From Naegleria gruberi (Eukaryota), in NCBI GenBank assembly GCA_000004985.1, contig GG738851.1: a stretch of DNA of 64,000 nt; one strand, 5' to 3'. Below are positions 14,480 to 63,199 of the stretch, one piece after another. The notes below the pieces were generated by a model. That model saw only the letters and a list, made by a program, of their open reading frames with translations, searched no databases and was not told the origin of the DNA. The translations under genes were made by a program, and so were the position numbers. Numbering within the stretch: the first letter of the stretch is position 1; each line of letters opens with the position of its first letter.

Positions 14480-15910
14480 ATGAGTCAACAACTAACAAGC
14501 AACAACTCATCATCAACAGAATCAAATATTTTGGATGGAAGAAGAGAAAGATTGATTGTTTCTAACCGATTGATTGAAACCGACATGCCAATGATCAACA
14601 AAATTGGACAAATTATTTATGAAGAAAATTCAGTGGTTGTGAATAATACTGCCTCTTCCGATCAGCAGCAAATGGTTACAAGTTTGTGCCAAGGAATGGT
14701 CTATTATAAGCCTCCTCAACAAGTGATGGAATCTCTGATTAGTAATCAATTGGAGAAGAGTTATAATCCGAGTGATCCCTTCTCTTTCATTCATAATTAT
14801 TGTGAGCATGATTTTGGAAGGAAACTAGTCAGAGATAAATTGAAAGAAAAGTTGAAAAAGATGAATGGAATTGATGGAGTGGAAGTGGTTTTAACGAGTG
14901 GATGTAATCAGGCCTTCACAAGTGTTGTCCTATCGTTGTGTGATGTTGGAGATGAGTGTATGGTATTTGGACCATACTATTTCAATCATTATATGGCCTT
15001 GCAAATGTTTGGAGTAAGACCAATTGTTTTTGATTGTAGAGAGGAGGATGGTTATCAACCTGGAAGTGGAGATGATATGGAACGTTTCACAGAGTTCTTT
15101 AAAAAAACAGTTCAGAATCCATCCAACAAATTGAGAATGGTTGTTGTCAATACTCCATGCAATCCAACTGGCGCTGTCTATACTAAAAACCAATTGGAAG
15201 TGATTAGTCAATTATGTAAAGAATATGGCATTTGGTTGATAATGGATGAAACTTATGAATGGTTTATTTATAATGATATGCAATCATCGAATGCAATTCA
15301 TTTTAGTCCACAAGGAGATCATATCATTCACTTGTACAGTTTTTCAAAATGTTTTGCCATGCCAGGTTGGAGAATTGGCTATTTGACATATCCAGCCACC
15401 AATACCACTCTTGGACTCCATCTCAATAAGATCCAAGACACAATTGTAATTTCCTCCCCACTCCCATCCCAACAACTTGCTCTCAGTGTTACTGAGATGG
15501 ATGAAGAGTTTGGAAAGATTTGGGCCATGGATAGAATTAACACTCTCAAGGAAAATAGAAGAGTCATTTGGAATGCTATTCATGATTTGTGCAATCTGGA
15601 GAAAATTCCAGAAGGTGCTATTTACTTTTGGGCAACTCTACCAAATTTTGCAAATCATTCGGATAATCAGTTGAGTATTGAAAAGGAATTCCAAGTGATT
15701 GAGTGGATGGTAAGAAAGCACAAGGTTGCCGTATTGCCAGGATCATGTTTTGGAAGAGTTGGAGGATTCAGAATTAGTTATGCCAATGTTTCTGAGAATG
15801 CCTGTAAATTAGCCGCCAATAGATTAAGAACAGCCCTTCAAGAACTGAAAGATGGTCAATTTGAGAAGGATGATCTTTCATTATATGTGAAAACATTCAA
15901 GACTCTATAA
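14480..15910 (+). CDS. PLP-dependent aminotransferase, class I/II
   Basis: A single 476-aa ORF. It contains SFSKCFAMPGWRIGYL, which matches the lysine-containing SxSK...G.R.GY signature of class I aminotransferases. GCNQAF, TPCNPTGAVY and LIMDETYEW are also present. Confidence 0.7.
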   Translation: MSQQLTSNNSSSTESNILDGRRERLIVSNRLIETDMPMINKIGQIIYEENSVVVNNTASSDQQQMVTSLCQGMVYYKPPQQVMESLISNQLEKSYNPSDPFSFIHNYCEHDFGRKLVRDKLKEKLKKMNGIDGVEVVLTSGCNQAFTSVVLSLCDVGDECMVFGPYYFNHYMALQMFGVRPIVFDCREEDGYQPGSGDDMERFTEFFKKTVQNPSNKLRMVVVNTPCNPTGAVYTKNQLEVISQLCKEYGIWLIMDETYEWFIYNDMQSSNAIHFSPQGDHIIHLYSFSKCFAMPGWRIGYLTYPATNTTLGLHLNKIQDTIVISSPLPSQQLALSVTEMDEEFGKIWAMDRINTLKENRRVIWNAIHDLCNLEKIPEGAIYFWATLPNFANHSDNQLSIEKEFQVIEWMVRKHKVAVLPGSCFGRVGGFRISYANVSENACKLAANRLRTALQELKDGQFEKDDLSLYVKTFKTL

Positions 15911-17027: not shown

Positions 17028-19571
17028 ATGGCTTCATCAAATCATGGTATCCAAGAAGGAGTTGGAATGTTATGCAGAAGAGAATTGGTGGATAATTATC
17101 AAATCCTACTAGAACAGGCTCAAGCAAACATTAATGCAGGTAGTTGCTCTCTGGATGGTTTTTGTAGTCATCACAGTATGGAGAGTAATCATCACGAAAC
17201 AGAGGAATACACTCTCGGAATGGTTCATAATAAGGAGTCGGAAAGAGTATTCTTAAATGACTATTTTATGAATACCATTAAAAGAGGAGTAAAGAGGTAT
17301 GATTTTGAGAAGGATCCTATTCAGATTCAGTACAATGTTTTGCATACACCTTCTCATGTTAAGGTATTGAAGAATATAGTATCAAAACCTCATCCTGTAG
17401 TGTCATGCTATTGTACGGCATATAGCGAACATTATCCACTGATAATAATTCCAGATCATATTTGGATGATGATTTCTCAATCCTTGGTTAGACATTTGCA
17501 TCTTCATCCTGAAATTTTGCAGCAAGTTGATATTAAAAAGAAGGAAATGAGAGTGGAAATGCCTACACATTACAACGAAGAAACACAATCAACAAATTGG
17601 AGTGCAGTAATTGAAGATATTCATCAACAAATTGTTCAAACATGTACAACAAGCGAAAAGTTGGATTTGGATGGATTTTTGGATCATAACTTTTCCACAT
17701 CAACTTCAGTGGAAAAGGTTGCATCAAAGATTTTACTCATGGAGGCCTTTAAGGATTACTTTACATATACCAATGATTTTATGTGTGGAATTCCTTGTGT
17801 GACAATATTGGGAACTCTGCAAGACTGGACATTGATGAGACAGAAAGTCAATAGATTGGATGATTTTGGTATGGGATGGTGGAGAAAGGTATTGGCTCTC
17901 ATAATTGATAGAATAATTGAAACAGCCCAAAAGGATACACTGACAGACGAATTGAAATTGTTCTGGAATGGAGTGGCAAGGTTTGACAGTAGTAGTGGAG
18001 AGAATTTTATTACTGGTTGGATCAACTATTTTTTCCCATACGATAAGGATGGAAATATTTCAAACCAAATGCAATCATTTATGGAGATGGAAGAGAGATT
18101 CCCTAATGTTGATAAATATGTGGACGATTTTGAGGATCATGGTTTTGAGGATTGTGAATTTGAAGAAGAAGAAGGCGAGAATTCTCCTCAATCTTCAATA
18201 GAACTAGCCGCTTTAAAGATGCAGAAAACATTCAGATGGAAACCATCTTTTAATGAGGATTGCTTTCCTTGCCCTCTAGCAATTGCAAAGGTCAATGTTG
18301 AAAATCATCCATCCTTAAAAGAGTTGTACTATGTTTCCGGATTTATGGGAATTGATTTTGATCATGAAATTGGAGGTTTAAAACCTGTTATATCTTGGGC
18401 TATAGCAGAGAAGAGAAGTGAGGCTGTTAGAGAAAATCTAATGAAGGGCCAATTCAAACATGCAATGTGGGCAATAGACTGTGGTTATACTAGTTGGAGA
18501 GCTTCCATATCTCTCTCATCTACACAAACTAAGCCAATAGGCTCAATCAATATTGGATTTACCAGTGATGGAGAGCAGGAGAATGTTTTTGAAAGTAAGG
18601 AAAGAATGATTGAGATATTCACCGCTTTGAAAGAATCACTTGTGAGGCAATTCATTGAGGAGGAAGTTAATTTGGGATCAAACGATAATTTGAAATTCTT
18701 GGAAGGAGAGCATGTTCTCTTGATGTCTCCTGCTGAAGTCAACCAAGAGCTGCTTCTTCAATGCGCCAAATCTGCTGGTTTGAAACCAATATGTTGGGTG
18801 GAAGATCCATGTCATAATATTCCTCAAGCATTTTCCCATTTGGTGAAAACTAACGAATGTGTACTGACTATTGATTGGCCAACTGGAGAACCATTCTTTG
18901 CCATGTCCAAGAAGGAGCATTGGAATGAGTTCGATCTTTTTGCATCAAGTGTTGAAGGCAAGAAGGAAACTCAGGGACTTGGTGGCGGTTTCAGTTTTAC
19001 TGACATGCTGTACACCTATTTTTATGATCAACACCCTGAAATTGCAGAGGAAAATTCTCACTTTTTAATGATGGAATGTGAGAGAGCCAAAAAGGTTCTC
19101 TCAACTGAAGACAAGGTTGACATCTTGATTAATGGAAAGTCTATTGAGGTGATAACAAGACAAACTTTCGAACAGGTGTGCTCACCTATTTTCAATTCAT
19201 TCCAACAACAATTGAATGCTTTCCTTTCTAGGCCTTTCAATAATACCAATGAGACTTTGAAAGATCGTGTCAATTATTTGGTGCTGTCTGGTGGATGTTG
19301 TAGAATTCCTCTCGTTCAACAAATCATTCATACATGCCTTCCAAAATCTGTACAGACACTCAGTAATCCAGAGGATACTTGCTATCTTTCCTCAGCAGGA
19401 GGTGCTCAAACATTCAGAAGCAGTCATTACAATAATATTCAATTTGAGGAATTCTTTAGAGATCCTCATTCTGAAATCTTCTCTGACAATGAATCGTCAC
19501 TCTATCCACACAAAGATCCACAAGAAAGTGATATTGCAATTGCTGAAGGTGACGATCACGACAATGAATAA
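17028..19571 (+). CDS. Large 847-aa protein; the C-terminal segment resembles the Hsp70/actin-fold ATPase subdomain IIA/IIB, and the N-terminal two thirds are unknown
   Basis: A single ORF. ERAKKVLSTEDKVDILINGKSIEVITRQTFEQVCSPIF and VLSGGCCRIPLVQQIIHTCLPKSVQTLSNPEDTCYLSSAGGAQ parallel the Hsp70 motifs ERAKRTLS...ITRARFEEL...LVGGSTRIPKVQ...SINPDEAVA.GAA. Confidence 0.5.
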   Translation: MASSNHGIQEGVGMLCRRELVDNYQILLEQAQANINAGSCSLDGFCSHHSMESNHHETEEYTLGMVHNKESERVFLNDYFMNTIKRGVKRYDFEKDPIQIQYNVLHTPSHVKVLKNIVSKPHPVVSCYCTAYSEHYPLIIIPDHIWMMISQSLVRHLHLHPEILQQVDIKKKEMRVEMPTHYNEETQSTNWSAVIEDIHQQIVQTCTTSEKLDLDGFLDHNFSTSTSVEKVASKILLMEAFKDYFTYTNDFMCGIPCVTILGTLQDWTLMRQKVNRLDDFGMGWWRKVLALIIDRIIETAQKDTLTDELKLFWNGVARFDSSSGENFITGWINYFFPYDKDGNISNQMQSFMEMEERFPNVDKYVDDFEDHGFEDCEFEEEEGENSPQSSIELAALKMQKTFRWKPSFNEDCFPCPLAIAKVNVENHPSLKELYYVSGFMGIDFDHEIGGLKPVISWAIAEKRSEAVRENLMKGQFKHAMWAIDCGYTSWRASISLSSTQTKPIGSINIGFTSDGEQENVFESKERMIEIFTALKESLVRQFIEEEVNLGSNDNLKFLEGEHVLLMSPAEVNQELLLQCAKSAGLKPICWVEDPCHNIPQAFSHLVKTNECVLTIDWPTGEPFFAMSKKEHWNEFDLFASSVEGKKETQGLGGGFSFTDMLYTYFYDQHPEIAEENSHFLMMECERAKKVLSTEDKVDILINGKSIEVITRQTFEQVCSPIFNSFQQQLNAFLSRPFNNTNETLKDRVNYLVLSGGCCRIPLVQQIIHTCLPKSVQTLSNPEDTCYLSSAGGAQTFRSSHYNNIQFEEFFRDPHSEIFSDNESSLYPHKDPQESDIAIAEGDDHDNE

Positions 19572-30363: not shown

Positions 30364-31597
30364 TTATTCCTTCTTCTTATGTTCCTTCTTCTTTTCTGGA
30401 ACATACTTGTCAATCTTAATTGGAGAACAAACGGTTGTCTTCTTATCACAAACAGTTCTTTCACCATACTTGACACATTTCTTGGTACCACCAACAAATT
30501 GATACTTGGCACAGACCTTATAACCTGGTGACTTTTTAACACACTTCTTCCAGTGCTTCTTCTTAATACATCTACTCTTTACGTGCTTATATTGAGTACA
30601 ATAGTTGACTGCCTTATATTCAGCACAGAATTTACGTTCCTTATACTTTTCACAAACTCTGACCTTCTTTCTAGCATCACAGAATTGATTTGGAACCCAT
30701 TGAGTACAGAAACGAGCCTTCTTTTGAGCAGCACAGAACTTTCTATCAATGAATTTAACACACTTTTTAGTGTAACCCTTCTTGAGACTGAATTTGACCT
30801 TATTGTATCTGATACACTTCTTGGTCTTGGTATATTTGGCACAAATCTTGTGACATTTTTGTTTACAGAAAGCATGATAATAAGTATCAGTCCATCCCTT
30901 GTAATGTTTTCCTGCAACTTTCTTCCATCCCTTTTGACATTTACAGACTTGCTTGTAAGCGGCACAGTAAGCATCGAGTTTATATTCAGCACATCTCTTC
31001 TTGTAATGATAGCCAACCTTTGGAACCTTGATATACTTGGCACAGACATGTGACTTGTCATATTTGGTACAGACAAAGTTATAGGCATATTGTTTACAGG
31101 AATTATTCTTTCCCTTATGAATACAAGCATCTTTCCAAGCACTCTTAACACAATACTTTTCAGTTTTATGTTTAGCACAAACTTGCTTATAACCTTTGAA
31201 AAATGTTACAAAAATTTTGTAAAATTTCAAACTCTAACTTACCATGACCCAAACACAACTTTCTATCCTTGGAATATTTATCACACTTGCTGAATTTCTT
31301 ATATTTCAAACATTTTCCTTTACCAACCAACTTCCAATCACAACATTCCTTCTTGGTACCAACCCATTCATAATCAGAACACTTTCCCTTGACAGTCTTG
31401 TAGTGAGTACACTTTTGGAAGCAATACTTTTGATGATCAGCATAACTGTCAACTTGTTGAGGTTTGGATTCACCTGCAGTGACTGCTGCAATGAGCATGA
31501 AGAGCAATGCGCTTGCAATTAGAACAGATTTGAAACTATTCATTTTTTTTCTTATTGTTTCTTCATAATGGGAATTGGTTTGAGATTTAAATATCAC
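30364..31597 (-). CDS. Secreted, highly basic Lys/Cys/Tyr-rich repetitive protein; exons 31597-31243 and 31193-30364
   Basis: A signal peptide reads MNSFKSVLIASALLFMLIAAVTAG. The donor g|gtaagt is in phase 1 and the acceptor is caaag|. More than 20 degenerate repeats of the C-x-KY-K...KKC type occur, for example CAKYTKTKKCIRYNKVKF, CEKYKERKFCAEYKAVNYCTQYKHVK and CVKYGERTVCDKK. Confidence 0.55.
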
Positions 31598-32226: not shown

Positions 32227-34712
32227 NNNNNNNNNNNNNNNNNNNNNNNNNNNNNNNNNNNNNNNNNNNNNNNNNNNNNNNNNNNNNNNNNNNNNNNNNN
32301 NNNNNNNNNNNNNNNNNNNNNNNNNNNNNNNNNNNNNNNNNNNNNNNNNNNNNNNNNNNNNNNNNNNNNNNNNNNNNNNNNNNNNNNNNNNNNNNNNNNN
32401 NNNNNNNNNNNNNNNNNNNNNNNNNNNNNNNNNNNNNNNNNNNNNNNNNNNNNNNNNNNNNNNNNNNNNNNNNNNNNNNNNNNNNNNNNNNNNNNNNNNN
32501 NNNNNNNNNNNNNNNNNNNNNNNNNNNNNNNNNNNNNNNNNNNNNNNNNNNNNNNNNNNNNNNNNNNNNNNNNNNNNNNNNNNNNNNNNNNNNNNNNNNN
32601 NNNNNNNNNNNNNNNNNNNNNNNNNNNNNNNNNNNNNNNNNNNNNNNNNNNNNNNNNNNNNNNNNNNNNNNNNNNNNNNNNNNNNNNNNNNNNNNNNNNN
32701 NNNNNNNNNNNNNNNNNNNNNNNNNNNNNNNNNNNNNNNNNNNNNNNNNNNNNNNNNNNNNNNNNNNNNNNNNNNNNNNNNNNNNNNNNNNNNNNNNNNN
32801 NNNNNNNNNNNNNNNNNNNNNNNNNNNNNNNNNNNNNNNNNNNNNNNNNNNNNNNNNNNNNNNNNNNNNNNNNNNNNNNNNNNNNNNNNNNNNNNNNNNN
32901 NNNNNNNNNNNNNNNNNNNNNNNNNNNNNNNNNNNNNNNNNNNNNNNNNNNNNNNNNNNNNNNNNNNNNNNNNNNNNNNNNNNNNNNNNNNNNNNNNNNN
33001 NNNNNNNNNNNNNNNNNNNNNNNNNNNNNNNNNNNNNNNNNNNNNNNNNNNNNNNNNNNNNNNNNNNNNNNNNNNNNNNNNNNNNNNNNNNNNNNNNNNN
33101 NNNNNNNNNNNNNNNNNNNNNNNNNNNNNNNNNNNNNNNNNNNNNNNNNNNNNNNNNNNNNNNNNNNNNNNNNNNNNNNNNNNNNNNNNNNNNNNNNNNN
33201 NNNNNNNNNNNNNNNNNNNNNNNNNNNNNNNNNNNNNNNNNNNNNNNNNNNNNNNNNNNNNNNNNNNNNNNNNNNNNNNNNNNNNNNNNNNNNNNNNNNN
33301 NNNNNNNNNNNNNNNNNNNNNNNNNNNNNNNNNNNNNNNNNNNNNNNNNNNNNNNNNNNNNNNNNNNNNNNNNNNNNNNNNNNNNNNNNNNNNNNNNNNN
33401 NNNNNNNNNNNNNNNNNNNNNNNNNNNNNNNNNNNNNNNNNNNNNNNNNNNNNNNNNNNNNNNNNNNNNNNNNNNNNNNNNNNNNNNNNNNNNNNNNNNN
33501 NNNNNNNNNNNNNNNNNNNNNNNNNNNNNNNNNNNNNNNNNNNNNNNNNNNNNNNNNNNNNNNNNNNNNNNNNNNNNNNNNNNNNNNNNNNNNNNNNNNN
33601 NNNNNNNNNNNNNNNNNNNNNNNNNNNNNNNNNNNNNNNNNNNNNNNNNNNNNNNNNNNNNNNNNNNNNNNNNNNNNNNNNNNNNNNNNNNNNNNNNNNN
33701 NNNNNNNNNNNNNNNNNNNNNNNNNNNNNNNNNNNNNNNNNNNNNNNNNNNNNNNNNNNNNNNNNNNNNNNNNNNNNNNNNNNNNNNNNNNNNNNNNNNN
33801 NNNNNNNNNNNNNNNNNNNNNNNNNNNNNNNNNNNNNNNNNNNNNNNNNNNNNNNNNNNNNNNNNNNNNNNNNNNNNNNNNNNNNNNNNNNNNNNNNNNN
33901 NNNNNNNNNNNNNNNNNNNNNNNNNNNNNNNNNNNNNNNNNNNNNNNNNNNNNNNNNNNNNNNNNNNNNNNNNNNNNNNNNNNNNNNNNNNNNNNNNNNN
34001 NNNNNNNNNNNNNNNNNNNNNNNNNNNNNNNNNNNNNNNNNNNNNNNNNNNNNNNNNNNNNNNNNNNNNNNNNNNNNNNNNNNNNNNNNNNNNNNNNNNN
34101 NNNNNNNNNNNNNNNNNNNNNNNNNNNNNNNNNNNNNNNNNNNNNNNNNNNNNNNNNNNNNNNNNNNNNNNNNNNNNNNNNNNNNNNNNNNNNNNNNNNN
34201 NNNNNNNNNNNNNNNNNNNNNNNNNNNNNNNNNNNNNNNNNNNNNNNNNNNNNNNNNNNNNNNNNNNNNNNNNNNNNNNNNNNNNNNNNNNNNNNNNNNN
34301 NNNNNNNNNNNNNNNNNNNNNNNNNNNNNNNNNNNNNNNNNNNNNNNNNNNNNNNNNNNNNNNNNNNNNNNNNNNNNNNNNNNNNNNNNNNNNNNNNNNN
34401 NNNNNNNNNNNNNNNNNNNNNNNNNNNNNNNNNNNNNNNNNNNNNNNNNNNNNNNNNNNNNNNNNNNNNNNNNNNNNNNNNNNNNNNNNNNNNNNNNNNN
34501 NNNNNNNNNNNNNNNNNNNNNNNNNNNNNNNNNNNNNNNNNNNNNNNNNNNNNNNNNNNNNNNNNNNNNNNNNNNNNNNNNNNNNNNNNNNNNNNNNNNN
34601 NNNNNNNNNNNNNNNNNNNNNNNNNNNNNNNNNNNNNNNNNNNNNNNNNNNNNNNNNNNNNNNNNNNNNNNNNNNNNNNNNNNNNNNNNNNNNNNNNNNN
34701 NNNNNNNNNNNN
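32227..34712. other. Assembly gap (run of N)
   Basis: A continuous run of n from 32227 to 34712. Confidence 0.95.
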
Positions 34713-37088: not shown

Positions 37089-37159
37089 CGGCGTATGATG
37101 CAGAGGTAGCATGTTGGACTCTGAATCCAAATACGCAGGTTCGATTCCTGCTACGCTGG
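37089..37159 (+). tRNA. tRNA-Gln (anticodon CUG)
   Basis: I folded it by hand. The acceptor stem is CGGCGTA/TACGCTG. The D arm is ATGC-AGAGGTA-GCAT. The anticodon arm is TTGGA-CTCTGAA-TCCAA. The T arm is GCAGG-TTCGATT-CCTGC, and the discriminator is G. Confidence 0.6.
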
Positions 37160-37653
37160 TTTAACTTTTTATTTTAGACTTCCATCTTTTAAATCTTTGC
37201 ATATAGTTGTTTATCTATCAAAATCTCAAATATCACCTTCTATCTCTAAATATCCATTGAGAATGAGCTGTTCTAAAGAATCCAAAATATTGTTAGATTA
37301 TTTTTTTCTTGCATCGAAGCAACAAGTCTATTTTGCCGACTCATTGATAATTTTTTTGGATCGCTGAGTTTCAATGATAGCATTTCTAAGGTTGGAGACA
37401 GGTTTGTGATTGGTACGGTTGCACAAGACCCATCCATTATATATGGATTTGAAGTACTATATTTCAGATCTTTCATTGTGGCAGCATTTTTCCACAGTGA
37501 ATCTGTAGTTTCACCCTTGAGCACCTTATTTATCATGGCTCGTGCCATAATCTATTCAGATTCTCATAGGTTATATAAATTATTTGGAGTTCATTAAAAA
37601 AAAATGTCTCCTAAAATCTCAACCTATAATGATGATCACTCACACGTCCACTG

Positions 37654-38790
37654 TTGGACGCATTTAATGATGATGTGTTACGATTAATTTTATCATTTCT
37701 TCATCAAGCCGATTTATTACAATTGGAAATTGTTTCTAAAGGATTGAGAATTTGTCAGCTTTGTTCCGAAGATCAATATTGGAAGGAATTTTGTTTGGAT
37801 CATGTTCGGATGATGAAGAAGGAATGTCAAGAATTTAATAATCTATTTTATAAAGGGAGTGGTGGATCGAGAGAAATTCGACATTTATTGCAAAAGTATG
37901 AGCAATTCCTGATATTGGAATGTGATTTTAAAAAACATTTTGTAGAAGTGTGGAGAATGATTGAAAATCTTGTTGAACAAGATCATGCGAGAGTTATTAG
38001 ACGAATTGATCAATTGGAACAAGTGAAGAGCAAACAACCATTTATTGATCTGTCTGAAATTAGAAAGTATACACTGAAAGATTATTCAAAAAAGGATTTA
38101 CCAAGTTATAAAATTACACAAATTGGTAGGTATTAGTCGAAATTTATTAGAAAGGAATTATGATGATTATTTTCAATAATAATTAGGTGATGGAGCTATT
38201 GGAAAAACGTGTCTCTTTATCAGAATGGCCTTAAACACCTTTCCAGAGGACTATGTTCCAACAGTATTCGATAATTATAGTGCCAATTTTATTTGTCAAG
38301 ACATGACATTCAATCTCTCCCTTTTTGATACATCTGGTGCAGATGGTATGTTTTCATGATTCAGATTTTTCGTCATATTTTGGATTTTATCACCATTTAA
38401 AGAGTATGTACAAGGATCATACATGGTCCTGATGTATTATAGAGATACAAGTTTATTCCTTTTGAGTTTAGTTGTCTTTCTGTTCGGTCATTGGAGAATA
38501 TTATTGACAAGTGGATTTCTTTAATTAGAGGTCAAAATCCTAGTACACCAATAGCTCTCGTATGTACAAAAATCGATGTGAGGAATAATAGCAAAGAGTG
38601 TAAACGTCAACTAAGAACTAGACTTACCAAACCATTAACATATGAAATTGGTGAATCATTAGCAAAGAAATTAGGATGTATTGCTTATTTCGAAACAAGT
38701 GCATTGACCAGTGAAGGAATGGATTATTTTCCGAAGGATATCATCAAGGCATATCTTAAAAAGAGAAGGAAGGATTGCATATTACAGTAA
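37654..38790 (+). CDS. F-box-like domain fused to an atypical Rho/Ras-like small GTPase with a C-terminal CAAX box; exons 37654-38125, 38187-38345, about 38403-38433 and 38472-38790
   Basis: The N-terminus DDVLRLILSFLHQADLLQLEIVSKGL...WKEFC fits an F-box. After the donor g|gtaggt, the next exon reads GDGAIGKTCLFIRMALNTFPEDYVPTVFDNYSANF...DTSGAD, which is the Rho G1-G3 region. The last exon reads SLENIIDKW...LVCTKIDVRNN...CIAYFETSALT...KDCILQ. The short third exon is uncertain because its donor, GTATTA, is weak. Confidence 0.5.
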
Positions 38791-38924: not shown

Positions 38925-38997
38925 GCTGGCGTAGCTCAGTCGGTAGAGCGTTGGTCTAATAAGCCATTGGTCGCCGGTTCGATCCCGTCCGTCAGCA
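38925..38997 (+). tRNA. tRNA-Ile (anticodon AAU)
   Basis: The acceptor stem GCTGGCG/CGTCAGC is perfect, with one G-U pair. The D arm is GCTC-AGTCGGTA-GAGC. The anticodon loop CTAATAA gives anticodon AAT. The T loop is TTCGATC. There is one mismatch in the anticodon stem and one in the T stem. Confidence 0.55.
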
Positions 38998-39580: not shown

Positions 39581-41812
39581 TTACCAAGATAAAAAGATAG
39601 CAATCTTGGCTCTTGATGTTCCAATTATACCTTGATTTTGTAAACCGTACTCTGAGGAAAAGTAGAGAATTGGTCCCTTCTTTCTTTCCACTCGATCCTT
39701 CTCACTTGTATTATTAGCTAGAGGTGGTAAAGTATAGGCAAATACATAGTTATTTCCTGAAAAGATTTGGGGCAGTGGCGGCAGAATGACTTCACCAATC
39801 AATCTCTTTTCCTCCTTTTGAAATGCCTTCTTTTCTTTGAGAAGGATTTTAATTTGATCGAACATGATAGCATAGCAAACATCTGGATTGGCATCTGGAC
39901 CAGTAATATCACTATTCAGTAATTATTAAATTCCATAAATTATTCCAAAAATTGAAAAGTATTCCAAATAAATCTTGAGTCATTAAAGTTAATAGAGATA
40001 CATACTATTCGAAAATCTCGTTAAATTTAGGGTTCTTACTCTTAATAACCTTAGTTTTACACTTGTCGTCGTTAAACCATAGAGAAATATACACATCCGA
40101 TAAGAATGGAATATCTTCCACACTTTCCAATTTTACAATTAGTTTCTTTGGTGGAAGAGGTTGAAATTCATTGCTCGATCTAAATTTCCATCCCAGCTTT
40201 GGTTTGTAATGAATTCCTCCCACGATTTGTCTCCCAAAATTGTTCTTTCTATTATTTACAATTGTATTAAATCTACACAATTCCTTTGCATTATCTTCTC
40301 CATATGTCAAATCCAAAATACTCAATGTCATTTTGTTTGAGAAGGGCACTCTCTTGATGATTTTAGTTTCTCCCTTTCTCTTTTGAATTTGTTGCTTGAG
40401 GAAGAATTCAGGTGATGTGAATTCAACAAAGAAAATTACATAGTGGAATCTTTCATCGGTGAGGGTTTGATACTTGTCCTGTTTTCCTTTTTTCAAATTT
40501 AACAATGCAATTTCCTCCTGAACTGTTGCCTTCTTTGATGAAGTCGTCGATTGTTCATCTCCTGATCCATCATTTGATGTGTTATCAGTTGGTTTTTCCT
40601 CTGCATCCTTTGTTCGTGTATCTAGGAATGAAATACTTTCGAATGCAGAAATTTCATCCAATTTTAATCCTTTCTTCTTCAGGGTCTTTTCATGCTTGGG
40701 AATGGAAGCAATACTGTGAAATGTTCTTGGTCCATTACTTTGATCGGAGGCAAAATAACAAATTGGAGCTCCAAAACTAGAATATGCCACTGCATACATT
40801 GTGTATGGCACATCCACTTCAATGGTTTCCTCCTTTGTTGTGTGTGATTTTGCTGACTCTTTCACTTCTCTAGAAATTGAATCCTCTCTCGCTAATTCAT
40901 CATAGAAACCTGTCATGTTTTCATCATCATTATCATCATTATAATTTTAAAGAGAAATATTCGATAAATATTATAATCCGATTATTGTGTTAATATTCAA
41001 TTATTAATTTGTCAAACGGATCATCACTTACCATAATCATCATTATCGAAAAACTTTTGTTTCGTCTTCATTCTATGATTATTAGCCGAATCTTCTTCTT
41101 GTGCTGTTCTAGTATGTCTCAGCACTGACCAAGCTCTTTCATTTTCCATCTCCTTTTCAACAGCTGTCTTTTCATATCTCAGTTTTACTGCTAGTTTTGT
41201 GCATTTCGAAATATCAAAATCCTTGTTCAGAGTCAAAGTCTGTCCTTTCCCATTCGTTGAAACTATTCTCGAAATGGCCATTGGCACTTCATCTTCCTCC
41301 TGTTCATCAAGTTGAGTTGATGAAGTCGATTGTTTCTTACTCTTTTCCAAACTTTCTTTTTTAATATTTACACCATACAATTGTTTAACCTGTTGTTCTG
41401 GATCTTCATCCGATTCTTCATCCGAATCAATATCATCATCATTATCATCATGTTTTACTTGAGTAAAATCATTCTGAGTCAATAATCCACTGAAAAAACT
41501 CTTCACTCCATCAAAAAGAGAACCTGTTGTTGTTGTAGCACCACCAGAAAAATCATTCATATTTCCATTAGCAGCACCACCACCACCACCAGAATTTGAT
41601 GATGAATAATTAATTTCTGATTGATTGGCTGACCAAGGTTGATTCGGAGGAGGAGGAAAAGATAATATTTGATTATTAGGATCGTATGGATTGTATTGAT
41701 GAGAGGGATGAGAATGATGATGATTGAAAGATTGAGCATGTTGTTGTTGAGGTGGTTGATTGTTCCCGCCGCCGCTTCCTTGTGGATCGTAGAAGAAGGT
41801 GTTGTGTTGCAT
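39581..41812 (-). CDS. Gln/Asn/Gly-rich protein with a C-terminal C2-like domain; exons 41812-41032, 40909-40006 and 39911-39581
   Basis: Donors are g|gtaagt at 41031 and ta|gtatgt at 40005. Acceptors are gacag| and gaatag|. Frames agree across both junctions. The C2-like stretch reads LIVKLESVEDIPFLSDVYISLWFNDDKCKTKVIKSKNPKFNEIFE. Confidence 0.45.
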
Positions 41813-54794: not shown

Positions 54795-55778
54795 TCAACC
54801 ATATAAACATTGATATTCAATTGAAAGATAAGACAAGTGTTTCATATCACGAATGACTGTTTCTCCTTCAATCTGAATTTCATTTTCTGAAATATCTAGG
54901 TGTGTTAATTTATCCATTCTACTGATTGAGATGGCACCCGCATTACCAATGAAACAATCTTGGATATAAAGTTCATTCAATTGTTTCATTTCACTAATCA
55001 TCCTTGCTCCTTCATCACCAATTCCAAAATTTTGACTAATGTAAAGTACAGTCAATTGATCCAATTCACTAATTGACTTGGCTCCAATAGGACTAATTCC
55101 ATTTAACGAAATATCGAGAATTTTCAATGATTTGATTTCACTTATAAATTTGGCTCCTTCATCACCAATATTATTGTAAGCAATATTTAGGAATGTTAAA
55201 TTATTCAATTTTGAAATAAATTTTGCAGATTTTGATGTAATTCTCAAGCTGCTAACTGTTAGATCAGTAAGATTGTCTAATTGACAAATTGATTCTATAC
55301 CTTCATCATTGATGGGATTATTACCAATGTTAAGGTAGGTCAAATTTCTTAATTCACTGATGGATTTGGCTCCTTCATTGAAGATTTGATTGATTTCCAA
55401 ATCAAGGCATGTCAACTGTTTCATTTCACTAATTAATTTAACCATATTGTCATCAATTAGATTATTTCCAATTTCCAAAGTGGTCAATTGAGTCATACGT
55501 CCTAACATGTTAAACCAATTGTCATTTAAAATATTGCGTGCAAATGTTATTGATACAAAACAATCCAAAAATTCATTATTTACTTGATTGACCAAATGAT
55601 TATTCGCCATCATTGAAAGCTCGGATCGATCTCGGATGACCTTCAACCATTGTTTTGTTACCATTACACAATTTAATAATACGAATTTCCAATCATCACA
55701 TAAATAGGAAATAATTTCATAAATTACATCATCAGAAAATATTTCTATTGCAATTATTAGCGAAACTTTGATCATCAC
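54795..55778 (-). CDS. F-box-like/leucine-rich-repeat protein
   Basis: The N-terminus DDVIYEIISYLCDDWKFVLLNCVMVTKQWLKVI is F-box-like. About 9 LRRs follow, with the pattern L..L.I..N.I.DEGAK.ISE(L/M). Confidence 0.55.
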   Translation of the reverse strand: MMIKVSLIIAIEIFSDDVIYEIISYLCDDWKFVLLNCVMVTKQWLKVIRDRSELSMMANNHLVNQVNNEFLDCFVSITFARNILNDNWFNMLGRMTQLTTLEIGNNLIDDNMVKLISEMKQLTCLDLEINQIFNEGAKSISELRNLTYLNIGNNPINDEGIESICQLDNLTDLTVSSLRITSKSAKFISKLNNLTFLNIAYNNIGDEGAKFISEIKSLKILDISLNGISPIGAKSISELDQLTVLYISQNFGIGDEGARMISEMKQLNELYIQDCFIGNAGAISISRMDKLTHLDISENEIQIEGETVIRDMKHLSYLSIEYQCLYG

Positions 55779-56127: not shown

Positions 56128-57576
56128 ATGAAACTAAACGAATTGGAAGCAGATGTTTTTCCTCTCATTTACTCATTCATTTATGAGTTGCCATTAAAAA
56201 GTTACGAGAAACAAGAAGGAAATAGCTCAATAGGATGGAGTACATTGGCCTTCCCACATACCTGCTCTAAAATTCTGACAAGTTTAGATTCGTATGCACC
56301 ATTCCAATTCGAAAAGTTTATTCAATTTTATTGTCTTGGAATTAAGAATCATAGGTATGAAGAACTGGAACCAATTATTAATGGACAAGATGCAGAGTTA
56401 AAGGATATAATTCCTGTGGTTTTCTATTTGAATTTCCCACAATTGAGTTTTATTGAACATTTACAATTCGAAAGAGATTTAATTCCAATGGAGAGAAAAA
56501 TTAGAAAATCTTTGAGTATTACTAGAAATAGATATGAAGATTTTCTATTCAAAATTGATAGAATTATTGAAATGTTATCTTCCTTCATTAAAATAATTAA
56601 AAAGAAACTTGGAGTGGATGAATTGACTCAAGAAATGGGACAAGTTTTTCAATTGACTGATACAAAGATTCTGCTTCCAATTTCTAGTTTAGTATCTGTA
56701 ATTGAAAACGTTGATCAAGTTGTGAACAAGTGTATGAAAATATTTCATTGGAAAGCTTTTCGAAACTATTACTTTGAAGAAGAATATCTGCAAGTTCCAA
56801 AAGAATTACCTCTCATTAACAAAAAGTACAGAGACTGTGAAAGAATAATCTCAATCTTGAAGAATAATGAATCATTTGAGAGGGCAGATGAGTTGTTAGA
56901 CTTGTTGTCAAATCTCGAATGTTACTATTGTGATAAGCTTGCTGCTAGTATTAGTCAACTCTTTTTCCAAGGACAATTTGTAAGAAATAGAACTAATATC
57001 AAGCTATTAAGGATGATGCTGTATTATGGAATGTATAATAACTCTGCTCTCTTTATGAAATGTCCAGAAGAAATTCAAAATGATGAGGAAATTGTAAAAC
57101 GATTCGTTTTTTCCAGTCCAAATATGTATTCCCATATTCCTAGCAAGTTTAAACAAGATAGTTCAATAATTGAGATGTGTATTTTCCAAAGTGATAGTTC
57201 TATTGAATTTATTTATGAAGAAACAGTAGGAAGAGATTCTTTGTTCTACAGTTTAGTACAGTATCCAACAATATTTTACACTTACCTAGCAAAATGCACA
57301 GAAACTCAATTTGTGCAAGATGTTATTGAAATTTTCATTGAAGTTCTCAAACATGATAAATTCCATCCAACTCTTCAGTCTTTCTTTAGAGATGGTATGT
57401 TTTTACGGTCTATCCTATCTCATGGAAGAATTCTAAGTGAACAAAGAGATTGGGATGATCCAGCTATCCAAGAAATCAGATCTGATTTTGAAGCTTATCT
57501 GAGTGTTATTGACACTTTCAAACGTGAGTATCTCAATGACCATACCAGTACTTCAGACCTCCTCAAGTTGATCTAA
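56128..57576 (+). CDS. Hypothetical protein, 482 aa, with no recognised domain
   Basis: A single long ORF with ordinary composition. There is no internal repeat and no obvious intron signal. Confidence 0.35.
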   Translation: MKLNELEADVFPLIYSFIYELPLKSYEKQEGNSSIGWSTLAFPHTCSKILTSLDSYAPFQFEKFIQFYCLGIKNHRYEELEPIINGQDAELKDIIPVVFYLNFPQLSFIEHLQFERDLIPMERKIRKSLSITRNRYEDFLFKIDRIIEMLSSFIKIIKKKLGVDELTQEMGQVFQLTDTKILLPISSLVSVIENVDQVVNKCMKIFHWKAFRNYYFEEEYLQVPKELPLINKKYRDCERIISILKNNESFERADELLDLLSNLECYYCDKLAASISQLFFQGQFVRNRTNIKLLRMMLYYGMYNNSALFMKCPEEIQNDEEIVKRFVFSSPNMYSHIPSKFKQDSSIIEMCIFQSDSSIEFIYEETVGRDSLFYSLVQYPTIFYTYLAKCTETQFVQDVIEIFIEVLKHDKFHPTLQSFFRDGMFLRSILSHGRILSEQRDWDDPAIQEIRSDFEAYLSVIDTFKREYLNDHTSTSDLLKLI

Positions 57577-59096: not shown

Positions 59097-62000
59097 NNNN
59101 NNNNNNNNNNNNNNNNNNNNNNNNNNNNNNNNNNNNNNNNNNNNNNNNNNNNNNNNNNNNNNNNNNNNNNNNNNNNNNNNNNNNNNNNNNNNNNNNNNNN
59201 NNNNNNNNNNNNNNNNNNNNNNNNNNNNNNNNNNNNNNNNNNNNNNNNNNNNNNNNNNNNNNNNNNNNNNNNNNNNNNNNNNNNNNNNNNNNNNNNNNNN
59301 NNNNNNNNNNNNNNNNNNNNNNNNNNNNNNNNNNNNNNNNNNNNNNNNNNNNNNNNNNNNNNNNNNNNNNNNNNNNNNNNNNNNNNNNNNNNNNNNNNNN
59401 NNNNNNNNNNNNNNNNNNNNNNNNNNNNNNNNNNNNNNNNNNNNNNNNNNNNNNNNNNNNNNNNNNNNNNNNNNNNNNNNNNNNNNNNNNNNNNNNNNNN
59501 NNNNNNNNNNNNNNNNNNNNNNNNNNNNNNNNNNNNNNNNNNNNNNNNNNNNNNNNNNNNNNNNNNNNNNNNNNNNNNNNNNNNNNNNNNNNNNNNNNNN
59601 NNNNNNNNNNNNNNNNNNNNNNNNNNNNNNNNNNNNNNNNNNNNNNNNNNNNNNNNNNNNNNNNNNNNNNNNNNNNNNNNNNNNNNNNNNNNNNNNNNNN
59701 NNNNNNNNNNNNNNNNNNNNNNNNNNNNNNNNNNNNNNNNNNNNNNNNNNNNNNNNNNNNNNNNNNNNNNNNNNNNNNNNNNNNNNNNNNNNNNNNNNNN
59801 NNNNNNNNNNNNNNNNNNNNNNNNNNNNNNNNNNNNNNNNNNNNNNNNNNNNNNNNNNNNNNNNNNNNNNNNNNNNNNNNNNNNNNNNNNNNNNNNNNNN
59901 NNNNNNNNNNNNNNNNNNNNNNNNNNNNNNNNNNNNNNNNNNNNNNNNNNNNNNNNNNNNNNNNNNNNNNNNNNNNNNNNNNNNNNNNNNNNNNNNNNNN
60001 NNNNNNNNNNNNNNNNNNNNNNNNNNNNNNNNNNNNNNNNNNNNNNNNNNNNNNNNNNNNNNNNNNNNNNNNNNNNNNNNNNNNNNNNNNNNNNNNNNNN
60101 NNNNNNNNNNNNNNNNNNNNNNNNNNNNNNNNNNNNNNNNNNNNNNNNNNNNNNNNNNNNNNNNNNNNNNNNNNNNNNNNNNNNNNNNNNNNNNNNNNNN
60201 NNNNNNNNNNNNNNNNNNNNNNNNNNNNNNNNNNNNNNNNNNNNNNNNNNNNNNNNNNNNNNNNNNNNNNNNNNNNNNNNNNNNNNNNNNNNNNNNNNNN
60301 NNNNNNNNNNNNNNNNNNNNNNNNNNNNNNNNNNNNNNNNNNNNNNNNNNNNNNNNNNNNNNNNNNNNNNNNNNNNNNNNNNNNNNNNNNNNNNNNNNNN
60401 NNNNNNNNNNNNNNNNNNNNNNNNNNNNNNNNNNNNNNNNNNNNNNNNNNNNNNNNNNNNNNNNNNNNNNNNNNNNNNNNNNNNNNNNNNNNNNNNNNNN
60501 NNNNNNNNNNNNNNNNNNNNNNNNNNNNNNNNNNNNNNNNNNNNNNNNNNNNNNNNNNNNNNNNNNNNNNNNNNNNNNNNNNNNNNNNNNNNNNNNNNNN
60601 NNNNNNNNNNNNNNNNNNNNNNNNNNNNNNNNNNNNNNNNNNNNNNNNNNNNNNNNNNNNNNNNNNNNNNNNNNNNNNNNNNNNNNNNNNNNNNNNNNNN
60701 NNNNNNNNNNNNNNNNNNNNNNNNNNNNNNNNNNNNNNNNNNNNNNNNNNNNNNNNNNNNNNNNNNNNNNNNNNNNNNNNNNNNNNNNNNNNNNNNNNNN
60801 NNNNNNNNNNNNNNNNNNNNNNNNNNNNNNNNNNNNNNNNNNNNNNNNNNNNNNNNNNNNNNNNNNNNNNNNNNNNNNNNNNNNNNNNNNNNNNNNNNNN
60901 NNNNNNNNNNNNNNNNNNNNNNNNNNNNNNNNNNNNNNNNNNNNNNNNNNNNNNNNNNNNNNNNNNNNNNNNNNNNNNNNNNNNNNNNNNNNNNNNNNNN
61001 NNNNNNNNNNNNNNNNNNNNNNNNNNNNNNNNNNNNNNNNNNNNNNNNNNNNNNNNNNNNNNNNNNNNNNNNNNNNNNNNNNNNNNNNNNNNNNNNNNNN
61101 NNNNNNNNNNNNNNNNNNNNNNNNNNNNNNNNNNNNNNNNNNNNNNNNNNNNNNNNNNNNNNNNNNNNNNNNNNNNNNNNNNNNNNNNNNNNNNNNNNNN
61201 NNNNNNNNNNNNNNNNNNNNNNNNNNNNNNNNNNNNNNNNNNNNNNNNNNNNNNNNNNNNNNNNNNNNNNNNNNNNNNNNNNNNNNNNNNNNNNNNNNNN
61301 NNNNNNNNNNNNNNNNNNNNNNNNNNNNNNNNNNNNNNNNNNNNNNNNNNNNNNNNNNNNNNNNNNNNNNNNNNNNNNNNNNNNNNNNNNNNNNNNNNNN
61401 NNNNNNNNNNNNNNNNNNNNNNNNNNNNNNNNNNNNNNNNNNNNNNNNNNNNNNNNNNNNNNNNNNNNNNNNNNNNNNNNNNNNNNNNNNNNNNNNNNNN
61501 NNNNNNNNNNNNNNNNNNNNNNNNNNNNNNNNNNNNNNNNNNNNNNNNNNNNNNNNNNNNNNNNNNNNNNNNNNNNNNNNNNNNNNNNNNNNNNNNNNNN
61601 NNNNNNNNNNNNNNNNNNNNNNNNNNNNNNNNNNNNNNNNNNNNNNNNNNNNNNNNNNNNNNNNNNNNNNNNNNNNNNNNNNNNNNNNNNNNNNNNNNNN
61701 NNNNNNNNNNNNNNNNNNNNNNNNNNNNNNNNNNNNNNNNNNNNNNNNNNNNNNNNNNNNNNNNNNNNNNNNNNNNNNNNNNNNNNNNNNNNNNNNNNNN
61801 NNNNNNNNNNNNNNNNNNNNNNNNNNNNNNNNNNNNNNNNNNNNNNNNNNNNNNNNNNNNNNNNNNNNNNNNNNNNNNNNNNNNNNNNNNNNNNNNNNNN
61901 NNNNNNNNNNNNNNNNNNNNNNNNNNNNNNNNNNNNNNNNNNNNNNNNNNNNNNNNNNNNNNNNNNNNNNNNNNNNNNNNNNNNNNNNNNNNNNNNNNNN

Positions 62001-62302
62001 NNNNNNNNNNNNNNNNNNNNNNNNNNNNNNNNNNNNNNNNNNNNNNNNNNNNNNNNNNNNNNNNNNNNNNNNNNNNNNNNNNNNNNNNNNNNNNNNNNNN
62101 NNNNNNNNNNNNNNNNNNNNNNNNNNNNNNNNNNNNNNNNNNNNNNNNNNNNNNNNNNNNNNNNNNNNNNNNNNNNNNNNNNNNNNNNNNNNNNNNNNNN
62201 NNNNNNNNNNNNNNNNNNNNNNNNNNNNNNNNNNNNNNNNNNNNNNNNNNNNNNNNNNNNNNNNNNNNNNNNNNNNNNNNNNNNNNNNNNNNNNNNNNNN
62301 NN
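59097..62302. other. Assembly gap (run of N)
   Basis: A continuous run of n. Confidence 0.95.
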
Positions 62303-62815
62303 TCATGTTGGTAAAGTTTCAATAGGTGGTCCTTTTTCAAGATTTCATCCTTTTCATCAAAGTGACCATGTGTGATTGAGGGAAGAAATCTCTAAATATG
62401 AAAGTTAAAATAAATTTGATATTCGATGCTTACTCATCAAATGGAACATTTTCATATTAGGATTCAATATGTTTTGATGAGAAACTCAAAAGTTATAGTT
62501 GACCTCTTTTACCTCACAACTTCCCTTTTCACTTGATACTTTTATACCTACAGACATGAAGTTTAGAAATTTCATATGAGAGTGATTATGAATGTTGTTA
62601 GTGAAGATATATACTATATAATCTCATTAAAGGATTTTGAAATTATCATTCTTCCTATGGTATCATTTTACAAATTTTAATCTGATATTATTTACAAAGT
62701 TAATATTTTATAAATTGAAAAACTAAATATACTACGTTGTTCTACTCATCATTTCCTATCGAATGATATAAAATTTAATGATATTTGAATAAGTTTATAA
62801 TTTTGGGCTAGGGTT

Positions 62816-63118
62816 TGAAGGTTGGGTTTGGGTTGGGTTTGGGTTTGGGTTGGGTTTGGGTTTGTGGTTGGGTTTGGGTTTGGGTTTGGGTTTGGTTTGG
62901 GTTTGGGTTTGGGTTTGGGTTTGGGTTTGGGTTTGGGTTTGGGTTTGGGTTTGGGTTTGGGTTTGGGTTTGGGTTTGGGTTTGGGTTTGGGTTTGGGTTT
63001 GGGTTTGGGTTTGGGTTTGGGTTTGGGTTTGGGTTTGGGTTTGGGTTTGGGTTTGGGTTTGGGTTTGGGTTTGGGTTTGGGTTTGGGTTTGGGTTTGGGT
63101 TTGGGTTTGGGTTTGGGT
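62816..63118. repeat. Interstitial telomere-like array (GGGTTT)n with degenerate 5' units, abutting a small N gap
   Basis: About 45 perfect gggttt units follow variants such as ggttgggttt and gtggttgggttt. The array runs into the n run at 63119-63168. Confidence 0.85.
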
Positions 63119-63199
63119 NNNNNNNNNNNNNNNNNNNNNNNNNNNNNNNNNNNNNNNNNNNNNNNNNNCTGACATGGTTGAATGACATGAATATTGAAT

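What the first reader, a model, noticed from the sequence alone, without database searches (positions are those of the whole stretch)
37654..38790. F-box-like domain fused to an atypical Rho/Ras-like GTPase
The exon-1 ORF ends ...KITQIG without a stop, on a GT donor. The next exon continues in frame with DGAIGKTCLF...PTVFDNYSANF...DTSGAD, the Rho P-loop through switch II. The last exon carries the G4/G5 regions and a CAAX box (CILQ). The catalytic Gln of DTAGQE is replaced (DTSGAD) and the switch II region is shortened. This suggests a constitutively GTP-bound or non-hydrolysing GTPase, as in Rnd, RhoH or RhoBTB. An F-box attached to a prenylated GTPase could recruit an SCF ubiquitin ligase to membranes or Rho effectors.
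Basis: partly seen in the sequence, partly recalled or inferred. Interest (0 to 1): 0.65.

Follow-up and report, generated by a model that had tools for sequence, protein, structure and literature searches.

The report
Known Naegleria F-box–Rac gene, frame-broken copy
This is one copy of an already published Naegleria gene family that joins an F-box (ubiquitin-ligase adaptor) to a Rac-like GTPase. In this assembly the copy has no usable start codon and a one-base frameshift, so it is probably a young pseudogene or carries sequence errors.

Summary
The window is Naegleria gruberi NEG-M. The core observation holds. An F-box-like ORF (37654-38125) ends on a GT donor. It joins in frame to exons that encode a Rac-like GTPase with DTSGAD in place of DTAGQE and a CILQ prenylation box.

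It is not new. Herman et al. 2021 (PMC8296547), Table S8, lists this exact locus as a newly built model, "Rac, ACER01000078.1**, F-box". [quoted passage not shown]

- **Switch II.** The 31-nt exon and 38-nt intron, and so the "shortened switch II", are most likely a route around a 1-nt deletion at 38469/38470. Restoring one base gives a full-length switch II and beta-4 (LFLLSFSC). This matches the closest paralogue and raises the Rho-profile score from 153 to 171 bits.
- **Start codon.** No in-frame ATG precedes the F-box. Stops lie at 37627-37635, and the first in-frame ATG (37810) is downstream of the F-box.

Most likely this is a recently inactivated paralogue. Assembly error is less likely. 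Interest is low.

The parts
37604..37606 (+). Candidate ancestral start codon (AAAAAAAATG context), in a different frame from the F-box. As assembled it opens only a 27-codon ORF.
   Evidence: the ATGs at 37604 (frame 2) and at 37629/37632 (frame 0) are the only ATGs between the divergent neighbouring ORF (start 37548, minus strand) and the F-box (frame 1). The paralogue in L005 starts in the same AAAAAAAATG context.
37627..37635 (+). Three consecutive in-frame stop codons (TAA TGA TGA) immediately upstream of the F-box frame.
   Evidence: There is no AG dinucleotide in 37636-37665, so no canonical acceptor can bring in an upstream coding exon.
37657..37791 (+). F-box domain (DAFNDDVLRLILSFLHQADLLQLEIVSKGLRICQLCSEDQYWKEF).
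   Evidence: Pfam F-box-like 22.8 bits and F-box 18 bits for this copy, both sub-threshold. 14 of 16 family members hit F-box-like, best E=1.1e-9. The AlphaFold2 model shows three short helices, H2-13, H18-27 and H32-36, with pLDDT above 90.
37792..38106 (+). Helical linker conserved in the family (DFKKHF... motif). Contains the first in-frame ATGs at 37810 and 37813.
   Evidence: Exon-1 homologues align over residues 3-157. AlphaFold2 predicts long helices 44-66, 73-86 and 92-127. Family alignment.
38107..38125 (+). GTPase beta-1 strand (YKITQI + first base of Gly) at the end of exon 1.
   Evidence: It aligns with Rac1 KCVVVG.
38126..38186 (+). Intron 1 (61 nt, GTAGGT...TTAG, phase 1).
   Evidence: The closest paralogue has an intron at the same position and phase (L005: KIIQIG|DQAVGKT).
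38187..38345 (+). Exon 2: P-loop GDGAIGKT, switch I YVPTVFDNY, G3 DTSGAD (Gln61 to Ala, Trp56 to Phe).
38346..38402 (+). Intron 2 (57 nt, GTATGT...AAAG, with an in-frame stop). Herman et al. use the acceptor at 38414 instead.
   Evidence: Rho-profile scores are 173.4 bits with the acceptor at 38402 and 170.6 bits with 38414. The paralogue has an intron at the same donor position.
38403..38790 (+). Final coding block: switch II, beta-4, Rho insert, TKID, ETSAL, polybasic stretch, CILQ and stop. It is interrupted by a 1-nt deletion.
38469..38470 (+). Site of the 1-nt frameshift (GAGTTT-AGTTGT, against GAGTTTCAGTTGT in the paralogue).
   Evidence: The DNA alignment shows 23 identical bases around a single gap. 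Restoring one base gives LFLLSFSCLSV and adds 18 bits against a Rho profile. Herman et al. print exactly this corrected peptide.
38434..38471 (+). More likely coding sequence for MYYRDTSLFLLS(F).
   Evidence: Its donor lacks the G at position 5 and T at position 6 that all six other donors tabulated in this window carry. The closest paralogue has no intron here. Length alone does not exclude it, because the window holds a 43-nt intron at 9481-9523.
38584..38634 (+). Rho insert region (NNSKECKRQLRTRLTKP).
   Evidence: It aligns with the Rac1 insert DDKDTIEKLKEKKLTP.
38776..38790 (+). CaaX box CILQ plus the TAA stop, preceded by KKRRK.
   Evidence: C-x-x-Q is almost universal in the family.

Best explanation
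The locus is one paralogue of the published Naegleria F-box-Rac/Rho family. That family has the layout [optional Kelch propeller] - F-box - helical linker - Rac-like GTPase - polybasic CxxQ tail.

Inferred mechanism for intact members:
- The F-box docks on Skp1/Cul1.
- The C-terminal Cys is prenylated. Farnesyl is expected because X = Gln (textbook CaaX rule).
- The Rho domain is often mutated at the Gly12 or Gln61 positions, so it is probably slow or unable to hydrolyse GTP. It would act as a nucleotide-dependent binding module that presents partners to the ligase at membranes. Alternatively, it makes the GTPase itself a ligase target.

This particular copy, as assembled, cannot make that protein. 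The F-box frame is closed by three stops with no AUG before it, and a 1-nt deletion breaks the frame inside beta-4. The most likely reading is a recently inactivated member of a family that gains and loses copies quickly. The rest of the ORF is still intact.

Shown: the domain content, family membership, prior publication and both frame defects. Inferred: Skp1 binding, farnesylation, GTPase deficiency and pseudogene status.
For: - Organism.
- In-frame gene model.
- Ras/Rac identity with the Rho insert.
- Exon-1 homologues with the same architecture in N. gruberi, N. fowleri and N. lovaniensis.
- F-box in 14 of 16 relatives.
- This exact sequence in Table S8 of PMC8296547 as 'Rac ... ACER01000078.1** F-box', printed without a Met and with the frameshift corrected.
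- The paper's text on F-box-GTPase fusions, disrupted members in the divergent Rab-like F-box clades, and 'birth-and-death evolution'.
- The frameshift.
- The missing start.
- No protein in a database of 5.8 billion is more than 46% identical, so no annotation pipeline or assembled transcript yields this product.
- No one-to-one N. fowleri orthologue is listed.
- Gly12/Gln61 variation and the CxxQ tail across the family.
Against: - Apart from the two defects the gene looks healthy. There are no internal stops in about 330 codons at 31% GC, and the G1, G2, G4, G5 and F-box motifs are kept.
- Herman et al. left their 'putative pseudogene' column blank for it.
- A GT...AG segment that exactly restores the frame does exist, and 40-43-nt introns occur in this genome.
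- I had no access to reads or RNA-seq, so sequencing error cannot be excluded.
- None of the biochemical steps has been tested for any family member that I could find.
Confidence: 0.6

Rival explanations
1. The gene is functional, and both frame problems are errors of the draft assembly. The real gene starts at an upstream ATG, probably 37604, and reads straight through 38469/70. It would encode a full-length F-box-Rac with a normal-length switch II, as Herman et al. implicitly assumed.
For: The corrected peptide is a good Rho domain at 171-173 bits. Conserved motifs are intact. The published curators did not flag it as a pseudogene. The scaffold is a draft with N gaps at 32227-34712 and 59097-62302.
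Against: It needs two independent indel errors within 0.9 kb of otherwise clean sequence. The deletion is not in a long homopolymer (TTT-AG). No gene model or assembled ORF for this locus exists in any source searched.
Confidence: 0.25
2. The mRNA removes 38434-38471 as a real 38-nt intron, possibly coding sequence turned into an intron after the frameshift. Translation starts at a non-AUG codon (CTG 37651 or TTG 37654). The product would be an F-box-Rho with switch II about 10 residues shorter.
For: The model is open and is the best of 88 GT-AG paths. It gives MVLICLSV, which mimics beta-4. Introns of 40-43 nt exist in the window. The curated model of the closest paralogue also contains a tiny exon in switch II.
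Against: The donor GTATTA lacks the GTxxGT shared by all six other donors tabulated in this window. The paralogue has no intron here, and the 'intron' is near-identical to its coding sequence. The model scores 18 bits lower than the read-through. The CTG and TTG codons sit in a poor initiation context, and three ATGs in other frames precede them.
Confidence: 0.08
3. The locus is expressed, but translation starts at the first in-frame ATG (37810/37813). The product would be a Rac-like GTPase with a helical N-terminal extension and no F-box. It would still need the frameshift to be bypassed.
For: 37810 is the first in-frame ATG.
Against: Three upstream out-of-frame ATGs would capture scanning ribosomes. 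The F-box codons are still fully conserved, which argues that they were translated until recently. The frameshift problem remains.
Confidence: 0.05
4. There are two separate genes: an F-box ORF and a small GTPase gene with its own promoter in 38136-38187.
For: None beyond the stop codon in the intron.
Against: The GTPase beta-1 strand lies in exon 1 and exon 2 has no ATG before the P-loop. Relatives carry both domains in a single uninterrupted ORF. The paralogue has an intron at the same position and phase.
Confidence: 0.01

Closest known systems
Naegleria F-box-Rac/Rho proteins (Herman et al. 2021, BMC Biol 19:142, Additional files 4 and 10). Examples: N. gruberi XP_002678060.1 (corrected model), XP_002680373.1, XP_002672610.1 (Kelch + F-box + Rac); N. 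fowleri XP_044568862.1 and XP_044569419.1; N. lovaniensis XP_044553212.1 and XP_044555926.1.
   Same: Same architecture, same F-box motif (L/F-NDD-x-x-R-x-ILSFL ... ED-x-x-WK), same helical linker, a Rac-like domain with the Rho insert, and a CxxQ tail. Introns 1 and 2 are shared with XP_002678060. This very locus is listed there as ACER01000078.1**.
   Different: This copy lacks an in-frame start and carries a 1-nt frameshift. It has Ala at the Gln61 position and Phe at Trp56. No one-to-one orthologue is listed in N. fowleri.
RhoBTB (a Rho domain fused to tandem BTB domains; a Cul3 ligase adaptor). Also present in Naegleria according to Herman et al.
   Same: An atypical Rho GTPase physically coupled to a cullin-RING ligase adaptor domain. 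This is the closest analogy for how it would work.
   Different: The adaptor is an N-terminal F-box (Skp1/Cul1) rather than C-terminal BTB domains (Cul3). The order of domains is reversed. This family keeps a CaaX box, whereas mammalian RhoBTB1/2 lack one (own knowledge).
Rnd proteins and RhoH (GTPase-deficient Rho proteins)
   Same: Substitution at catalytic positions: Gln61 here, and Gly12 and/or Gln61 in many family members. A farnesyl-type CaaX, as in Rnd (own knowledge).
   Different: Those are stand-alone small GTPases without a ligase-adaptor domain. GTPase deficiency has not been measured for the Naegleria proteins.
Legionella Rab-like effectors carrying F-box or U-box domains (Gomez-Valero et al., bioRxiv 10.1101/350777)
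   Same: A Ras-superfamily domain combined with an F-box in one polypeptide.
   Different: Those are bacterial secreted effectors with a Rab-type domain, not a Rho-type domain. No homology of the fusion is implied.

Membership tests
Rho/Rac family of small GTPases | Ras-superfamily G domain with G1 (GxxxxGKT), G2 (Thr35), G3 (DxxG), G4 ((N/T)KxD) and G5 (SA(L/K)) motifs | tested here: met
   GDGAIGKT, YVPTVFDNY, DTSG, TKID and ETSAL are all present. Pfam Ras E=1.5e-23. Rac1 E=7e-37. Coordinates.
Rho/Rac family of small GTPases | Rho-specific insert helix between G4 and G5 | tested here: met
   NNSKECKRQLRTRLTKP aligns without gaps to the Rac1 insert.
Rho/Rac family of small GTPases | Catalytic Gln61 and an intact switch II | tested here: not met
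   Gln61 is replaced by Ala (DTSGAD) in every splice model. Switch II has normal length only after correction of a 1-nt frameshift.
F-box proteins (SCF substrate receptors) | Sequence match to the F-box / F-box-like profiles above the curated threshold | tested here: inconclusive
   This copy scores 21.5-22.8 bits against a cut-off of 24.3 (F-box-like) and 17-18 bits against 20.5 (F-box). 14 of 16 homologues of the same domain match F-box-like, best E=1.1e-9. A Foldseek search of the 157-residue model against the PDB gave no significant hit.
F-box proteins (SCF substrate receptors) | Binding to Skp1 | not testable with these tools
   Needs pull-down, yeast two-hybrid or a complex prediction. 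The canonical Leu-Pro of the motif is Leu/Phe-Asn in this family.
Naegleria F-box-Rac family (Herman et al. 2021) | Homologous F-box plus helical linker directly upstream of a Rac-like domain, with a CxxQ tail | tested here: met
   Exon 1 finds 23 homologues, with E down to 1e-12. All full-length ones carry the Rho domain. Family alignment. The identical sequence is in Table S8.
Naegleria F-box-Rac family (Herman et al. 2021) | Shared gene structure with the closest paralogue | tested here: met
   Intron 1 (IG|D, phase 1) and intron 2 (after DTxxxx, phase 1) lie at the same positions in L005, a near-identical strain copy of XP_002678060. Other paralogues differ: P0109 has one intron inside the P-loop and P0116 has none.
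Pseudogene (unitary, recently inactivated paralogue) | Frame-disrupting lesions relative to intact relatives | tested here: met
   A 1-nt deletion at 38469/70. No in-frame ATG, with three stops upstream of the F-box.
Pseudogene (unitary, recently inactivated paralogue) | The lesions are real in the genome, and there is no functional transcript or protein | not testable with these tools
   No reads or RNA-seq were available. There is only indirect support: no matching protein or ORF in 5.8 billion sequences, and nothing in JGI metagenome contigs.
GTPase-deficient atypical Rho (Rnd/RhoH/RhoBTB-like behaviour) | Substitutions at the Gly12, Ala59 or Gln61 positions that abolish hydrolysis | tested here: inconclusive
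   Gln61 to Ala is present, while Gly12 is retained and position 59 is Ser. The biochemical consequence has not been measured.

The most novel reading that the evidence does not exclude
The frameshift is real, and the cell rescues it. The 38 nt around it would have become a new spliceable intron, and translation would start at a non-AUG codon. This copy would then be a live F-box-Rho with a drastically shortened switch II. That would be a natural example of coding sequence turning into an intron to repair an indel in a fast-evolving family.
Probability: 0.06. Interest if true: 0.45.

Novelty: already known. Interest (0 to 1): 0.15.

Why it matters
The family itself is interesting. A prenylated Rho GTPase, often catalytically altered, is wired directly to an SCF adaptor. 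That suggests nucleotide-gated ubiquitination at membranes, parallel to RhoBTB-Cul3. This point has already been made in print for Naegleria, and no member has been tested.

This locus adds only three details. The reference copy is frame-broken. The "short switch II" is a modelling artefact. The published conceptual translation silently repairs a frameshift and lacks a start codon. This is useful as an annotation caveat and as one more data point for rapid gain and loss of copies in the family.

Tried and rejected
- **Alternative splice paths.** I enumerated all 88 open GT-AG paths between exon 2 and the last exon.
- **Fold search.** A Foldseek search of the AlphaFold2 model of exon 1 (pLDDT 82) against the PDB gave no hit with E below 0.1. 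The long linker helices dominate, so it is uninformative for the 45-residue F-box.
- **Independent copy of the locus.** An exact-pattern search across the frameshift site and a back-translated search with exon 1 in JGI metagenome contigs both found nothing.
- **Paralogue gene structures.** N. gruberi paralogues P0130 and P0126 are not in the gene-position index. I used N. lovaniensis loci and the ENA contig L005 instead.
- **Lineage of the Tara Oceans F-box-Rho (P0021).** A second protein search returned only generic Rac proteins.
- **Bacterial promoter/terminator scan.** Irrelevant for a eukaryote.
- **Intron length.** I rejected 'too short' as an argument against the 38-nt intron after finding a 43-nt intron in the window.
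- **First profile-search submission.** I reran it with exon 1 alone.

Full report
**Origin of the window.** Four long ORFs of the window were looked up by exact sequence and were in the collection. Three are annotated proteins of Naegleria gruberi NEG-M on a 693,645-bp scaffold: aspartate aminotransferase XP_002681137 at 14480-15910, NAEGRDRAFT_63746 at 17028-19571 and NAEGRDRAFT_63763 at 56128-57576. The fourth (40008-40916, minus strand) clusters with NAEGRDRAFT_63755. The window has 31% GC and three runs of N. The finding lies between tRNA-Gln(CTG) at 37089-37159 and tRNA-Ile(AAT) at 38925-38997.

**Checking the observation.**
- The ORF at 37654-38125 ends ...YKITQI plus one base of a Gly codon, on a GTAGGT donor.
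- The acceptor at 38186 continues in frame with GDGAIGKTCLF...YVPTVFDNYSANF...DTSGAD.
- Pfam gives Ras E=1.5e-23 over residues 153-313. It gives F-box-like 21.5 bits and F-box 17.1 bits at the N-terminus, both just under the curated cut-offs.
- Against solved structures, the GTPase part is closest to human Rac1 (E=7e-37), and the Rho insert aligns.
- The beta-1 strand of the G domain is in exon 1 and the P-loop is in exon 2. The 'two genes' alternative is therefore excluded by the sequence itself.

**The family.**
- A first search of the 5.8-billion-protein database found nothing more than 46% identical, so this gene has no annotated or assembled product anywhere. It did find one marine metagenome protein (P0021, Tara Oceans/ENA contigs) that is an intronless F-box + Rho + CALQ fusion.
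- An exhaustive HMMER search with exon 1 alone found 23 homologues. The full-length ones are all F-box - helical linker - Rho - CxxQ, and some carry an N-terminal Kelch propeller.
- By exact look-up these include N. gruberi XP_002672610 and XP_002680373 ('rho family small GTPase'), N. fowleri XP_044568862/XP_044569419, and N. lovaniensis XP_044553212/XP_044555926.
- 14 of 16 members match Pfam F-box-like, best E=1.1e-9. The N-terminal domain is therefore an F-box by homology, even though this copy alone is sub-threshold.
- The P0116 gene in N. lovaniensis is a single 1077-nt ORF. The P0109 gene has one intron, inside the P-loop. Both confirm that the two domains belong to one gene.

**Already published.** Herman et al. 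2021 (BMC Biol 19:142, PMC8296547) analysed Ras-superfamily GTPases of N. fowleri and N. gruberi.
[quoted passage not shown] It says this points to 'GTPase-dependent ubiquitination'. For three divergent Rab-like F-box clades it says some members are disrupted by mutations, suggesting 'birth-and-death evolution'.
- Their Table S8 (N. gruberi sheet) contains this exact locus as a newly created model: 'Rac | SLTRPLLDAFNDDVLRL...DTSGADGSYMVLMYYRDTSLFLLSFSCLSVRSLENIIDKW...KKRRKDCILQ* | ACER01000078.1** | F-box'.
- The accession occurs only once in the table, so no one-to-one N. fowleri orthologue is listed.
- The published peptide has no initiator Met. It also contains LFLLSFSC, which the assembled DNA cannot encode without adding a base.

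**The frameshift.**
- The closest homologue of exon 1 (P0103, on ENA contig L005) is a near-identical strain copy of N. gruberi XP_002678060. It shares intron 1 (IG|D, phase 1) and the donor of intron 2 with the window gene.
- In L005 the DNA TTATTCCTTTTGAGTTTCAGTTGT encodes LFLLSFSC, the Rho beta-4 strand. The window reads TTATTCCTTTTGAGTTT-AGTTGT: 23 identical bases around a single missing base at 38469/38470.
- Reading from 38403 straight through, with one base restored, gives DTSGADEYVQGSYMVLMYYRDTSLFLLSFSCLSVRSLENIIDKW. Switch II then has normal length, and the alignment to Rac1 after beta-4 has no gap.
With the full N-terminus the scores are 173.4, 170.6 (Herman's acceptor) and 155.1 bits.
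- Its donor, GTATTA, lacks the G at position 5 and T at position 6 carried by the other donors I could fix by homology: window introns 1 and 2 and the kinase, cyclase and histidine-kinase introns, plus the introns read in L005 and L006.
- Length is not an argument, because the cyclase intron at 9481-9523 is only 43 nt.

**The 5' end.**
- In the F-box frame the codons at 37627-37635 are TAA TGA TGA.
- There is no AG between 37636 and 37665 that could serve as an acceptor.
- The first in-frame ATG is at 37810, downstream of the F-box (37657-37791).
- The only ATGs between the divergent neighbouring ORF (start 37548, minus strand) and the F-box are at 37604 (frame 2, in the same AAAAAAAATG context as the paralogue's start) and at 37629/37632 (frame 0).
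- As assembled, the F-box cannot be translated from an AUG. A second small indel is the simplest explanation.

**Interpretation of this copy.**
- Two independent frame defects within 0.9 kb point most strongly to a recently inactivated paralogue. So do the absence of any gene model or ORF product in public collections, and membership of a Naegleria GTPase repertoire in which related F-box clades carry disrupted copies. I put this at about 0.6.
- The ORFs are otherwise open and the motifs are kept, so decay would be young.
- Assembly error at both sites (about 0.25) is what the published model tacitly assumes.

**How intact members probably work (inference).**
- The F-box would bind Skp1-Cul1.
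- The CxxQ tail, preceded by basic residues, predicts farnesylation and membrane attachment.
- The Rho domain would serve as the partner-binding module.
- Across the family the Gly12 and Gln61 positions are frequently substituted. Position 61 is Q, P, H, V, S or A, and the P-loop reads GDQ, GDD, GNA or GDH in several members. This resembles Rnd, RhoH and RhoBTB and suggests many members are locked or slow GTPases.
- In this copy Gly12 is kept, Gln61 is Ala and Trp56 is Phe.
- None of this has been tested experimentally for any member that I could find.

**Verdict.** The finding is already in the literature for this very locus. Interest is low. What remains of value is an annotation caveat and the small chance that an intron has formed around the frameshift.

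Noticed in passing
L001-L004 (ENA/Tara Oceans/Logan contigs; gene at L001:4623-5507): An intronless 294-aa F-box + Rho + CALQ protein (P0021, DTAGPE at the Gln61 position) sits on compact contigs of 45-47% GC. It lies next to an Alg13/Alg14 fusion and a papain-like peptidase. Its F-box resembles the Naegleria motif (SFL...DL...EEDSLW). The architecture therefore seems to exist in a marine eukaryote outside the sequenced Naegleria species. The lineage was not identified.
   Followed up: partly
window 9481-9523: A 43-nt GTAAGT...AG intron in the PAS-adenylate cyclase gene, fixed by homology (FAYD|VWGDVINVASRMES). It shows that N. gruberi splices introns of about 40 nt.
   Followed up: partly
L005:2931-3100 (strain copy of N. 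gruberi XP_002678060): The closest paralogue has DTAIHE (Gly60 to Ile, Gln61 to His). The curated model uses a 10-nt micro-exon in switch II. Yet the whole region 2831-3436 is one open frame, so an unspliced message would also be translatable. Which form is made is unknown.
   Followed up: no
family alignment; window 38776-38787: The CaaX box of nearly all F-box-Rho members ends in Gln (CILQ, CMLQ, CLVQ, CLMQ, CSIQ, CQVQ, CALQ), not in the Leu typical of Rho proteins. This predicts farnesylation rather than geranylgeranylation.
   Followed up: no
window 37089-37159 and 38925-38997: tRNA-Gln(CTG) and tRNA-Ile(AAT) genes, both on the + strand, flank the locus. The second lies 135 nt after the stop codon.
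   Followed up: no
window 54795-55778 (-): An ORF with an F-box-like N-terminus (FSDDVIYEIISYL) followed by leucine-rich repeats. It is another F-box gene in the same window.
   Followed up: no
window 30364-31230 (-): A 288-aa ORF that is highly repetitive and rich in Lys, Cys and Tyr (KY.K...C.KY pattern). Its nature is unknown.
   Followed up: no
window 37273-37548 (-): A 91-aa minus-strand ORF whose ATG lies only 56 nt from the candidate start ATG at 37604. This leaves a very short divergent intergenic region and no room for an upstream Kelch exon.
   Followed up: no
window 32227-34712, 59097-62302, 63119-63168; 62795-63235: Assembly gaps (runs of N), plus an ACACAG-type microsatellite that reads as TQ/PN repeats next to the last gap.
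   Followed up: no
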